Source: Styela clava (Eukaryota). From it: a stretch of DNA of 64,000 nt. The stretch spans positions 19,282,001-19,346,000 of the forward strand of contig NC_135251.1 of NCBI RefSeq assembly GCF_964204865.1, written 5' to 3'. Below, in pieces: positions 45,001 to 47,506 of this stretch (position 1 is its first letter; every line of letters begins with the position of its first letter). Position numbers: made by a program.

Positions 45001-47506
45001 AAGTATTGTCTACTATGTTACGTAACAATAGATACGGACACTGCTTAACAGAACGTAAACGCCATAGAAAGACAAAACGAATTTATTGATTCATATTCAC
45101 AACATTTAAGATAAGAAACAATAAAACATTTACAATAAATACCATATGTAAAATATTCATTCATATTTTAGCTAAGTTTAACACAAATTGGTCTTTGGTC
45201 CGCTGCTTTATGCGGTTTCCTCACACCGCGAACCAACGTGTTTGTTTGTTTCCGTCACAAAGCCCCCTGTCTGCGGCAGAGGAGTTAACTTGTTAGGGGT
45301 GTCAGTAACCTTGTTTTGTTTCCTCAGGGAGAAAGCTGTCAATATTTGCCATCTATCTTTGAATGTCATGAATATGCAAATGACATCGACAAAAAGCATA
45401 ATATCTAATGTTGCCGCGCGGATTGAAAAAGGAAAGTGTTTTGGAATTAAGAAGGAATTAATCACAATAAATATGATGTCCGTGAAAACAGCAACACATG
45501 TCCAAGTCAGTAAACGCCGAATAGCCTTTTGTATTTTACCAGGCTTCGAAGTTCCTGTATTGCATAAAAGCGTGATCCATTTAGAGCCTTGGTTTCTTGA
45601 TTTGTAATCCATGGCATCCTTCACGACTGGGTAAACGAACAAGCCAAGAAGGCCGAATTGAGCTAAGACCCCCGGAAGGTACATGATAGGAAACAAGTGT
45701 ATCATTTTGCTTTCAATTACCACACATCCTTGTGATATCGGCTCTTGACGATCAAATATAATAAATATATTTATAAGTAGAATCAAATGCGTAGAAAGCG
45801 TCGCAAATATTCCCCAACTCAAAAAATTGATGAATTTTCCTGTAGTCAGGCTTTGATTATAAACTATTTTTTGTCTCACCCATAAGAAGCAATAAACAAG
45901 ATATATTATAATCAAGTAATAAAACTTTGCCACAGTACCTACTACATTACATAGAAATAAAGAGTTTGCACCTCGAGGTGCCCAGATGTATACTTGCGTT
46001 ATCATGAATTTTTGAATGAGTAATACTGGAACTATCGTATAAATAGTGTGCAAAAGTCTTCCATTGAAAAAGCTTGTCGTTTGCCTGCTTTTCCATTTCC
46101 CATTCTGGATACAGTAGAAAACAAAACTCGCTAACAGCCAGCAGCATAGTAAACAGAGAATTGCTTCAACTGCTTGTGATAACGCCAGTAATACATTGAT
46201 CAAGTAATCGTTCGAATCTCCATCGCTAATGTTGAATGTTTGATTTGATGCCGCTGTCGAATTATCTTCCATAAACGTTTTGTTTGTTGCGGATTCGCTG
46301 GAATTCCAACTGCCATTGTTCAGCATCTGATTTGTAGCGACCGTTTTGTTTCCAAAATTCATTCTATTTTACTTTCGTATCAAACGAGGAAAGAAACCGG
46401 ATTCAAACACATAGTATCATATAAAATTTGCTACTAGCAATTCAGTCTTGTACAAGTACTGACAGTGACAGAAAATACCAGGCAAGGCAATATATATTAT
46501 GAAACACATGCGTTAATTAATAATACATTCGTAAAATCTTATTTCAATAAGTAATTTGTTAGCGTCATAGCGCGGAATAGATACCTTAAGTATGTTGATT
46601 TTGTTCTTAAAATCCCAAAGATCTTTTCAATCTTTTATTGATGATTGTTTCTCACATGTGTTATGGATTACTTTTTAACATTTTTTGTAATGCAATTTTG
46701 CGGCATTTGCAGTAAGACATAAATTCATACGCCTTTTTCAACACCGTGTTGCTCTATTCTTCAATTATTTACTGAAAACCGGATTTTTCCTGGCTTCCTA
46801 TCAGTGGCGTAGCATCCACCCCCGCAACCCCCGCGGTCGCGGGGGTCCCACAGCGAAAAGGGGCCCCAAGCGGTTAAAATTTAGAAATTTAACCGCAAAA
46901 CCAAAAGCTGCATTGCAAAACCAGTAATGCACATCTTATAAAGTTGATGTTAGTTCTGCTCAAATCGTTTTGTTACGTAACAATGCCGGAGTCGTCGATT
47001 TTCGGCGTCGTGTGGTTTGATCGCACCGGCCACCGGCACAATTACGAAGGCTGTCATGATGTCGAAAGCAAAACCTCTTAGTGGCGCACAAAAACGAAGA
47101 ATAAAGGGCAGAAGAGGAAGGACGTATGAAAAAAAATTAAAGCAACCAAGATAAACGAAATATTTAAACCAAAATTGAAACAATTAGACTTGGGAATACC
47201 GAACGTAACTGAGGAGGAATTAAGTCTAGCGTATCGGTAGAAAACCAGATGCGTGTTCAATCTCCAAAAGTGATGGAGCCGGCGCAAATGAATTTCCTTC
47301 CAAAACTTACACGACAATGATCACAGGTAAGCTACTGATTTTTAAAGCAAATTGAAAAAATTGATATGACGAAGATGGTGGCTGAGTTTGCTAACACGAA
47401 AGCGCAAATTTTAGGTTCCCATAGCCTTTTTATAGCGAAATGTTATGTTTTTTGACGAAATAAAAAAAAACTTTGTTTTAGCCTATGCTGTGCGAGGTCT
47501 GATTGA

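What the first reader, a model, noticed from the sequence alone, without database searches (positions are those of the whole stretch)
46058..46362. Near-identical 5' ~300 bp in otherwise diverged paralogs: gene-conversion tract with a sharp edge
The first 101 residues of A and B are identical, with only two silent differences I could see (codons 4 and 82). The upstream flank has more mismatches and indels, and codons after 102 differ by ~22% at protein level. A low-complexity glycosylated N-terminus normally diverges fastest, so recent conversion between the inverted copies is the simplest reading. The result is a constant N-terminus/TM1 on variable receptor bodies.
Basis: partly seen in the sequence, partly recalled or inferred. 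Interest (0 to 1): 0.65.

Follow-up and report, generated by a model that had tools for sequence, protein, structure and literature searches.

The report
Gene-conversion patch in paralogous membrane genes
Three neighbouring copies of an uncharacterised seven-helix membrane-protein gene share an almost identical 300-350 bp stretch at their start while the rest of one copy is about 11% diverged, which is the ordinary footprint of one copy having been pasted over another during DNA repair.

Summary
Gene A (45208-46362, minus) and gene B (53788-54921, plus) encode identical residues 1-101, with silent differences only at codons 4 and 82. After codon 101 the proteins differ at 60 of 276 positions. 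A third copy, C (60707-61861, plus), shares the tract.

Best-fit segment, relative to the ATG: -44..+303.
- A-B differences: 3 of 347 inside, 184 of 1622 outside.
- No permutation out of 20000 matched the longest identical run.

The drop also shows at third codon positions: 2/101 against 34/276 (p=0.0013) for A-B, and 1/101 against 36/283 (p=0.00014) for A-C. The B-C comparison is not depressed there (3/349 in the tract, 3/607 next to it). Local constraint or a low mutation rate therefore does not explain the tract.

The best reading is interlocus gene conversion between head-to-head paralogs 7.4 and 14.3 kb apart. The 3' edge is sharp; the 5' edge is loose (somewhere in -45..+13). This is a known kind of event.

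"Receptor" is not established. There is no Pfam or PDB match, only a seven-helix, N-terminus-outside topology. Reads, orthologs and structure prediction could not be checked.

The parts
45208..46362 (-). Gene A: intronless ORF of 384 codons. Predicted N-terminus-outside seven-helix membrane protein with no family match.
   Evidence: ORF. Pfam gave nothing above threshold. PDB sequence and profile searches gave no credible hit. There are 7 N-x-S/T sequons in residues 5-46 and 7 hydrophobic segments. K+R density is 21/114 on the inside and 7/91 on the outside.
53788..54921 (+). Gene B: paralog of 377 codons, with an in-frame 21-nt deletion (codons 351-357 of A).
   Evidence: 82.6% protein identity to A by tblastn.
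60707..61861 (+). Gene C: paralog of 384 codons, in the second tandem unit.
   Evidence: 83.6% protein identity to A. B-C protein differences are 1/101 and 7/276.
46058..46406 (-). Conversion tract in A. Maximum extent is -44..+305. Minimum extent is +13..+305, i.e. 46058-46350. It covers the last ~44 nt before the ATG, the glycosylated N-terminal tail, helix 1 and the first inner loop.
   Evidence: Change-point -44..303, with 3/347 differences inside and 184/1622 outside. Site patterns are and segment counts.
53744..54092 (+). The same tract in B.
   Evidence: One private change at +246 (codon 82).
60663..61011 (+). The same tract in C.
   Evidence: One private change at +241 (codon 81, V to I).
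44739..46802 (-). Whole block of A that is homologous to B and C (-439..+1624), about 88% identical overall.
   Evidence: blastn (to 53359-55410 at 87.9% and to 60277-62351 at 88.3%). Inverted repeats I1-I4.
53591..54699 (+). Low-divergence segment between B and C (-197..+912). The matching stretch in C is 60510-61618. It is a second candidate homogenised segment.
   Evidence: 8/1109 differences inside and 45/860 outside, 2*dLL 39.8. Longest run with up to 2 mismatches is 606 nt, reached by 1 of 20000 permutations.
51811..52157 (-). Relic copy of the upstream region plus the first 22 codons (-290..+65), 76% identical to A.
   Evidence: blastn, tblastn, alignment.
59036..59389 (-). Second relic copy of the same 5' fragment, in the second tandem unit, 79% identical to A.

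Best explanation
The tract is an interlocus (non-allelic) gene-conversion patch of 293-350 bp between gene A and the B/C pair.

Proposed mechanism (inferred):
- A break near the 5' end of one copy was repaired using the inverted paralog as template. The paralogs lie head-to-head on the same chromosome segment, 7.4 kb (B) and 14.3 kb (C) away.
- This gave a non-crossover patch covering the last ~44 nt before the ATG, the N-terminal tail, helix 1 and the first inner loop.
- B and C were made alike over about 1.1 kb (-197..+912) at about the same time, so all three now share the tract.

What is shown: the bounded tract, the effect at silent sites, and the change of relative distances among the three copies.

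What is not determined: the repair mechanism itself, the direction of transfer, and whether there was one event or repeated events.

I favour repeated exchange. The tract holds the only identical runs between A and B/C near the ~200 bp needed for efficient recombination, so it may be the last island that still converts while the rest has escaped.
For: 1. Bounded tract. A-B differences are 29/385 (-440..-45), 3/349 (-44..305), 67/607 (306..912), 26/222 (913..1155) and 56/398 (1156..1560). A-C is nearly the same.
2. Permutation tests gave 0 of 20000 for both A-B and A-C. The change-point 2*dLL is 54.4 and 59.2.
3. Silent sites. Third positions are 2/101 against 34/276 (p=0.0013) for A-B and 1/101 against 36/283 (p=0.00014) for A-C. 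NG86 synonymous differences are 2 of 60.3 sites against 27 of 180.8. The Poisson probability of 2 or fewer, given 9.0 expected, is 0.006.
4. Internal control. B-C divergence is not lowered in the tract (3/349 against 3/607 next to it). The A-B to B-C ratio changes from 3:3 to 67:3 (Fisher p=0.005).
5. Star-like pattern in the tract, with one private change each in A (+12), B (+246) and C (+241).
6. The 3' edge is sharp. After +305, A-private sites follow at 317, 330, 331, 342 and 357, plus the three-way site at 306.
7. Tract length fits published interlocus tracts. Passages of PMC3924818 give 50 to several hundred bp. Passages of PMC3966223 state that conversion occurs in inverted orientation.
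8. Identical runs between A and B/C are 233/228 nt in the tract. Elsewhere they are at most 75-84 nt. The minimal efficient processing segment is about 200 bp according to passages of PMC3924818.
9. Both diverged copies are real genes. Only 1.8% of 5000 simulations with 100 random substitutions kept the 849-nt body open. The only indel in the coding region is in frame.
Against: - Fourfold-degenerate sites alone do not reach significance: 1/36 against 11/86 (p=0.11) and 1/35 against 14/88 (p=0.065).
- There are no nonsynonymous A-B differences in the tract, and purifying selection on the N-terminus would also produce that.
- The 5' limit is not resolved. The stretch -44..+12 holds 2 differences in 56 nt, which is not distinguishable from the upstream rate of about 7.5% (my arithmetic).
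- At +12 the two relic copies agree with A (GGA). So either the tract starts after +12 or B and C changed later.
- There is no outgroup, no ortholog, no population data and no reads. Donor, date and assembly correctness are therefore untested.
- With only three sequences, the change in tree shape rests on very few sites inside the tract.
Confidence: 0.8

Rival explanations
1. There was no DNA exchange. The first 101 codons and the last ~44 nt before the ATG are under exceptionally strong constraint, silent sites included, for example from an embedded regulatory or RNA element. They have simply not diverged since the A/BC duplication.
For: There are no nonsynonymous A-B differences in 242.7 nonsynonymous sites of the tract. 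The fourfold-site test alone is not significant (p=0.11 and 0.065). The region around a start codon can carry regulatory information (general knowledge).
Against: Third-position and synonymous counts are depressed about six-fold. B-C divergence is not depressed in the tract (3/349 against 3/607), and it would be under local constraint or a low mutation rate. The tract RNA folds no better than shuffles (z=0.00; 53 of 100 shuffles fold at least as well). No other frame of the tract is open on either strand. The relic copies differ from A at 7 of the first 65 coding bases by my count on the alignment, so the sequence itself can mutate. The rest of the protein is weakly constrained (dN/dS 0.6-0.9), and an N/S/T-rich tail is an unlikely site for extreme constraint.
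Confidence: 0.07
2. Assembly or polishing artefact. Reads from the three copies were mixed in the 5' region, so the consensus was made uniform there.
For: Three similar copies lie within 16 kb, and B and C sit in ~95% identical tandem units, which is a setting where assemblers and polishers err. No reads are available to me.
Against: Each copy keeps its own private base inside the tract (+12, +241, +246), so the copies were resolved there. The flanks on both sides are 7-11% diverged, which is ample to place reads. A polisher cannot create identity from ~11% divergence unless the reads were already near-identical (inference). The window has no N or gap. The two tandem units differ by a ~1.2 kb insertion and have a distinct junction.
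Confidence: 0.05
3. Reverse or chimeric history. Either A is a young copy of B/C whose flank and body were later overwritten from an unseen, diverged paralog, or A arose as a chimera that joined a B/C-type 5' end to an older body.
For: Only 64 kb is visible and other family members may exist elsewhere. Relic 5' fragments in each tandem unit show that this 5' end has been copied on its own before.
Against: This history needs two separate overwritten stretches (-440..-45 and 306..1560) that stop exactly at the ends of the shared block, leaving 350 bp untouched in the middle. A simple chimera would be diverged on one side only, yet the tract has diverged sequence on both sides. It would still be a recombination product rather than a different kind of process.
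Confidence: 0.05

Closest known systems
Region-limited gene conversion between TLR1 and TLR6 in mammals (PMC2077338; abstract read)
   Same: These are neighbouring receptor paralogs in which one defined region is kept near-identical by conversion while the rest diverges. The converted region includes a transmembrane segment.
   Different: In TLR1/6 the tract is about 300 amino acids near the C-terminus, lies in tandem genes, and recurs independently in nine species, which argues for selection. Here the tract is about 100 codons at the 5' end, the copies are inverted, only one genome is available, and no recurrence is shown.
Conversion confined to the leader exon and introns of bovine CEACAM32 (PMC7042247; abstract read)
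   Same: Conversion affects the 5' leader part of a membrane-protein paralog while the parts that encode the mature functional domains escape.
   Different: That case concerns a multi-exon immunoglobulin-superfamily gene, and its authors infer selection against conversion in the Ig exons. Here the gene is a single exon and no selection against conversion has been shown.
Mosaic divergence by interlocus gene conversion in the three tandem HMA4 copies of Arabidopsis halleri (bioRxiv 10.1101/2025.10.29.685298; abstract read)
   Same: Three clustered copies have effective conversion rates that vary along the gene, giving a mosaic of identical and diverged stretches.
   Different: That is a plant metal pump with all copies in tandem, supported by population data and a model. 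Here there is only a single assembly.
Conversion between adjacent inverted paralogs in Caenorhabditis, e.g. the hsp16 modules and hsp70 pairs (review PMC3966223; passages read)
   Same: The adjacent genes are in opposite orientation, and the tracts range from tens of bases to a few hundred.
   Different: Surviving tracts there cluster at 50-200 nt. This tract, at 293-350 bp, lies toward the long end of that range but inside the reported ranges.
Class A (rhodopsin-like) G-protein-coupled receptors
   Same: Both have seven hydrophobic segments and an N-glycosylated N-terminus outside with no signal peptide. Cysteines sit at the top of helix 3 (C138) and in the second outer loop (C213), and the gene is intronless (the cysteine pairing is my reading, not a test).
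   Different: There is no 7tm_1 or other 7TM Pfam match and no PDB match by sequence or profile. hhalign probability against the class A receptor encoded at 35859-37373 is 0.4%. I see no D-R-Y or N-P-x-x-Y motif (motifs recalled).

Membership tests
Interlocus (ectopic) gene-conversion tract | A stretch between paralogs whose identity is significantly higher than in the flanking homologous sequence | tested here: met
   3/347 differences inside against 184/1622 outside. 0 of 20000 permutations matched, for both A-B and A-C.
Interlocus (ectopic) gene-conversion tract | The excess identity holds at silent and non-coding sites, not only at replacement sites | tested here: met
   Third positions p=0.0013 and 0.00014. 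Synonymous differences are 2/60.3 against 27/180.8. Fourfold sites alone go the same way but are not significant (p=0.11 and 0.065).
Interlocus (ectopic) gene-conversion tract | Diverged homologous sequence on both sides of the tract (a patch, not a crossover product) | tested here: met
   29/385 differences upstream and 67/607 downstream of the tract.
Interlocus (ectopic) gene-conversion tract | Relationships among copies differ between the tract and the flanks | tested here: met
   Inside the tract A-B, A-C and B-C are 3, 3 and 3 of 349. In the adjacent body they are 67, 67 and 3 of 607. Fisher p=0.005. Few sites are involved.
Interlocus (ectopic) gene-conversion tract | Paralogs within a species are more alike in the tract than orthologs between species | not testable with these tools
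The only genome collection open holds bacteria and archaea, and it gave 0 confirmed relatives among 63 pattern matches.
Class A GPCR (Pfam 7tm_1) | Match to the family profile at or above the curated cut-off | tested here: not met
   No 7TM family was listed for A, B or C at E up to 1, nor for the helix core at E up to 10. The neighbouring gene at 35859-37376 scores 100.8 bits on 7tm_1 in the same.
Class A GPCR (Pfam 7tm_1) | Seven membrane helices with the N-terminus outside | tested here: inconclusive
   The hydropathy profile peaks in seven regions. The segment borders are my own assignment. All sequons but one lie in the N-tail. K+R density is 21/114 inside and 7/91 outside (p=0.04). No structure model could be made.
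Class A GPCR (Pfam 7tm_1) | Fold similarity to solved receptor structures | not tested
   Structure prediction accepted no job.

The most novel reading that the evidence does not exclude
The 5' module (proximal leader, glycosylated N-terminal tail, helix 1 and first inner loop) may be kept identical in all family members by recurrent conversion that selection favours. A possible reason is that the copies share one trafficking or partner interaction through this part while the rest of the protein is free to diverge. That would make the cluster an invertebrate, single-exon analogue of the TLR1/TLR6 situation, in a 7TM family that no public profile recognises. The evidence is compatible with this but does not demand it. 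All three copies share the tract, the 5' end has been copied on its own at least once more (the relics), and the tract is the only stretch still long enough to recombine efficiently.
Probability: 0.1. Interest if true: 0.45.

Novelty: new member of a known kind. Interest (0 to 1): 0.2.

Why it matters
For annotation and phylogeny, trees or divergence dates built from the first 300 bp of these genes would be wrong by more than ten-fold: 0.9% against 11% divergence. A copy-specific probe, primer or read mapping in that stretch would not tell the three genes apart. Biologically this is one more clean example of mosaic divergence under interlocus conversion, with an unusually good internal control in the B-C pair. 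The gene family itself has no match in Pfam or the PDB and may deserve a look on its own. The conversion event is ordinary.

Tried and rejected
- Pfam on A, B and C and on the helix core alone gave only sub-threshold noise: COX2_TM at E 0.06-0.1 and GPR_Gpa2_C at E 0.09-0.5. I rejected these as family assignments.
- PDB by sequence gave one hit at E=0.19 to a methyltransferase, rejected. PDB by profile gave 0 hits.
- hhalign of the three-copy profile against the neighbouring class A receptor gave probability 0.4%.
- Rfam on the whole window gave 0 matches. There are no tRNA genes.
- The RNA fold of the tract gave z=0.00, so an RNA-structure explanation for silent conservation is rejected.
- No other frame of the tract is open, so an overlapping-ORF explanation is rejected.
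- Weak tblastn matches of A at 3275-3529 (E 0.06) and 31563-31712 (E 0.73) lie in short broken frames. I treated them as chance.
- A scan of bacterial and archaeal genomes gave 63 pattern matches and 0 confirmed relatives.
- A divergence gradient away from the 5' end seemed visible in the sliding windows. It disappears when only A-private sites are counted: by my count on the list, about 10-11% in each of 317-700, 700-1155 and 1156-1560. I rejected a polarity gradient.
- GC3 is slightly higher in the tract (0.45 against 0.36-0.38). This is too small and unpolarised to claim GC-biased conversion.
- The ESM Atlas did not hold the sequence. Structure prediction accepted no jobs, so no fold search was made.
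Eukaryotic relatives and orthologs therefore stayed unchecked.

Full report
**What is there**

The window is eukaryotic. Overall GC is 0.352. It holds a LINE-type reverse transcriptase and a Mos1-type HTH fragment. It also holds a class A receptor gene. Nothing suggests human sequence, and there is no N.

It contains three intronless paralogous ORFs:
- A: 45208-46362, minus strand, 384 codons.
- B: 53788-54921, plus strand, 377 codons.
- C: 60707-61861, plus strand, 384 codons.

A lies head-to-head with B and C. Its start codon is 7.4 kb from B's and 14.3 kb from C's. B and C sit in two tandem units that are about 95% identical overall. A shares with B and C only a block of about 2 kb, from -439 to +1624 relative to the ATG, at about 88% identity.

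**Check of the observation**

All positions from here on are relative to the ATG. A and B encode identical residues 1-101 and differ there only at codon 4 (GGA/GGG) and codon 82 (TTC/TTT). The first replacement is codon 102. C has the same tract with one private replacement, V81I. After codon 101 the proteins differ at 60 of 276 positions (A-B) and 62 of 283 (A-C). B-C differs at 7 of 276. The upstream flank has mismatches and two indels.

**Is it more than chance?**

There are 1969 ungapped columns in the shared block. A-B has 187 differences and A-C has 199.
- The longest identical runs are 233 nt and 228 nt. With up to two mismatches they reach 319 nt.
- None of 20000 permutations reached either value.
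- The best two-breakpoint segment is -44..303, with 3/347 differences inside. Outside it there are 184/1622 (A-B) and 196/1622 (A-C).

| Segment | A-B differences |
|---|---|
| -440..-45 | 29/385 |
| -44..305 | 3/349 |
| 306..912 | 67/607 |
| 913..1155 | 26/222 |
| 1156..1560 | 56/398 |

(All.)

The 3' edge is sharp. After +305 the differences start at once at the background rate: 306, 317, 330, 331, 342, 357. With about 11% divergence, a run of more than about 26 identical bases by chance has probability below 0.05 (my arithmetic). The end of the tract therefore lies roughly within 280-306, at the border of the first inner loop and helix 2.

The 5' edge is loose. Differences at -15 and +12 lie inside the best segment. 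The stretch -44..+12 is not distinguishable from the upstream rate.

**Conversion or constraint?**

The body is weakly constrained, with dN/dS of 0.6-0.9 and dS of 0.17-0.18. It is nevertheless a real gene. Only 1.8% of 5000 simulations with 100 random substitutions kept the frame open. The only coding indel is in frame.

Silent sites also drop in the tract:
- Synonymous differences are 2 of 60.3 sites against 27 of 180.8.
- Third positions are 2/101 against 34/276 (p=0.0013) for A-B, and 1/101 against 36/283 (p=0.00014) for A-C.
- Fourfold sites alone go the same way but are not significant: 1/36 against 11/86 (p=0.11) and 1/35 against 14/88 (p=0.065).

The best control is the B-C pair. Its divergence is not lowered in the tract (3/349 against 3/607 in the adjacent body). 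Inside the tract the three copies are equidistant (3, 3, 3), while beside it A is far from both (67, 67, 3). Fisher p is 0.005. A local low mutation rate or local constraint would lower B-C as well.

The tract RNA folds no better than shuffles (z=0.00). No other frame is open there. The two older relic copies of the 5' end differ from A at 7 of the first 65 coding bases (my count), so the sequence can change.

**Mechanism**

The pattern is that of a non-crossover interlocus conversion patch of 293-350 bp. This length is within published ranges: passages of PMC3924818 and of PMC3966223. The second paper also states that conversion occurs between inverted neighbours.

B and C have their own low-divergence segment, -197..+912, with 8/1109 differences inside and 45/860 outside. 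A second homogenisation would explain why both carry the tract.

The donor cannot be named. At +12 the relics agree with A. So either the tract begins after +12 or B/C changed later.

The identical runs in the tract (233 and 228 nt) are the only ones between A and B/C near the ~200 bp minimal efficient processing segment quoted in PMC3924818. Elsewhere the longest are 75-84 nt. I therefore lean towards the tract being the last stretch where exchange can still recur, rather than a single lucky event. The data cannot separate the two.

**The protein**

Evidence for a seven-helix, N-terminus-outside topology:
- Seven N-x-S/T sequons in residues 5-46, with no signal peptide.
- Seven hydrophobic segments.
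- More K+R on the predicted inner side (21/114 against 7/91).

No family can be named. Pfam, PDB sequence and profile searches and hhalign against the neighbouring class A receptor all fail. 'Receptor' is therefore an inference from topology.

The A-C replacements are spread over all segments after helix 1, except the 7-residue first outer loop, and are not concentrated in the outer loops.

**Comparison with what is known**

Region-limited conversion in membrane-receptor paralogs is documented:
- TLR1/TLR6 (PMC2077338, abstract).
- The CEACAM32 leader exon (PMC7042247, abstract).
- HMA4 mosaic divergence (bioRxiv 10.1101/2025.10.29.685298, abstract).

This is a new instance of a known process in an unnamed gene family.

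**What stayed unchecked**

- Reads and assembly quality.
The prokaryote genome scan found no relative.
- The ESM Atlas.
- Structure prediction and fold search.

The neighbouring two-exon gene was searched exon by exon only. The joined model was not made.

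Noticed in passing
window 46377 and 46057 (relative -15 and +306); the same columns in B are 53773 and 54093, and in C 60692 and 61012: Both positions that bound the tract are columns where all three copies carry different bases. Only 5 such columns exist among the 1969 ungapped columns. B-C differences also cluster near the 3' edge (241, 246, 306). This might be a trace of error-prone repair synthesis; PMC12891019, seen in a search listing only, reports high mutation rates during break repair. It could also be chance, since the choice of edges is partly circular.
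   Followed up: partly
window 53591-54699 and 60510-61618: B and C are almost identical over -197..+912 (8/1109 differences). The rest of the shared block differs at 45/860. This suggests a second homogenised segment, or B and C being alleles placed in tandem. The latter cannot be excluded without reads.
   Followed up: partly
window 51811-52157 (-) and 59036-59389 (-): Each tandem unit holds a relic copy of the upstream region plus the first 22 codons of the gene, 76-79% identical to A. These are truncated older duplicates of the 5' end alone.
   Followed up: partly
window 50105-50281, 50345-50505, 57313-57493, 57557-57712: The stretch -309..-125 upstream of the genes recurs four more times in both orientations at 80-84% identity. 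It looks like a small repeated or mobile element sitting in the promoter region.
   Followed up: no
window 34786-37376 (+): This appears to be a two-exon gene. Exon 1 (34786-35651) starts with a hydrophobic leader and has an S/T-rich then cysteine-containing part, with a weak Mucin hit. A GTGAGT...TTTCAG intron (35652-35845) keeps the frame by my reading. Exon 2 is a class A receptor (7tm_1 at 100.8 bits; PDB hits down to E=3e-9). The exons were searched separately and the joined model was not made.
   Followed up: partly
window 201-3897 (-): Exons of a histidine acid phosphatase-like gene. His_Phos_2 scores E=6.5e-5 but 22.9 bits, just under the 23.6-bit cut-off, on 201-674. A frame at 3631-3897 carries an R-H-G-D-R motif (the motif's meaning is recalled).
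   Followed up: no
window 6489-8588 (-): A 699-codon ORF with a reverse-transcriptase domain (RVT_1, E=2.3e-32). It is a non-LTR retrotransposon remnant.
   Followed up: no
window 47507-48134: Two Mos1-type transposase N-terminal fragments lie in opposite orientation between A and the tandem units. HTH_48 scores E=1.3e-7 on 47537-47854. A similar peptide is read on the minus strand at 47793-48134, but Pfam found nothing for it at E up to 0.01.
   Followed up: partly
window 41841-42509: Four copies of a 169-bp tandem repeat, 97% matching.
   Followed up: no
window 54838 (B), codons 351-357 of A and C: B lacks 21 nt in frame. This is the only indel in the coding region, whereas the flanks carry indels of 1, 3 and 10 nt and a 32-column alignment-edge gap.
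   Followed up: yes
window 56668-56916 and 43891-44141: A 250-bp element at the junction of the two tandem units is 95% identical to a copy about 1 kb beyond the 3' end of A, in direct orientation. It may be a repeat involved in the rearrangements.
   Followed up: no
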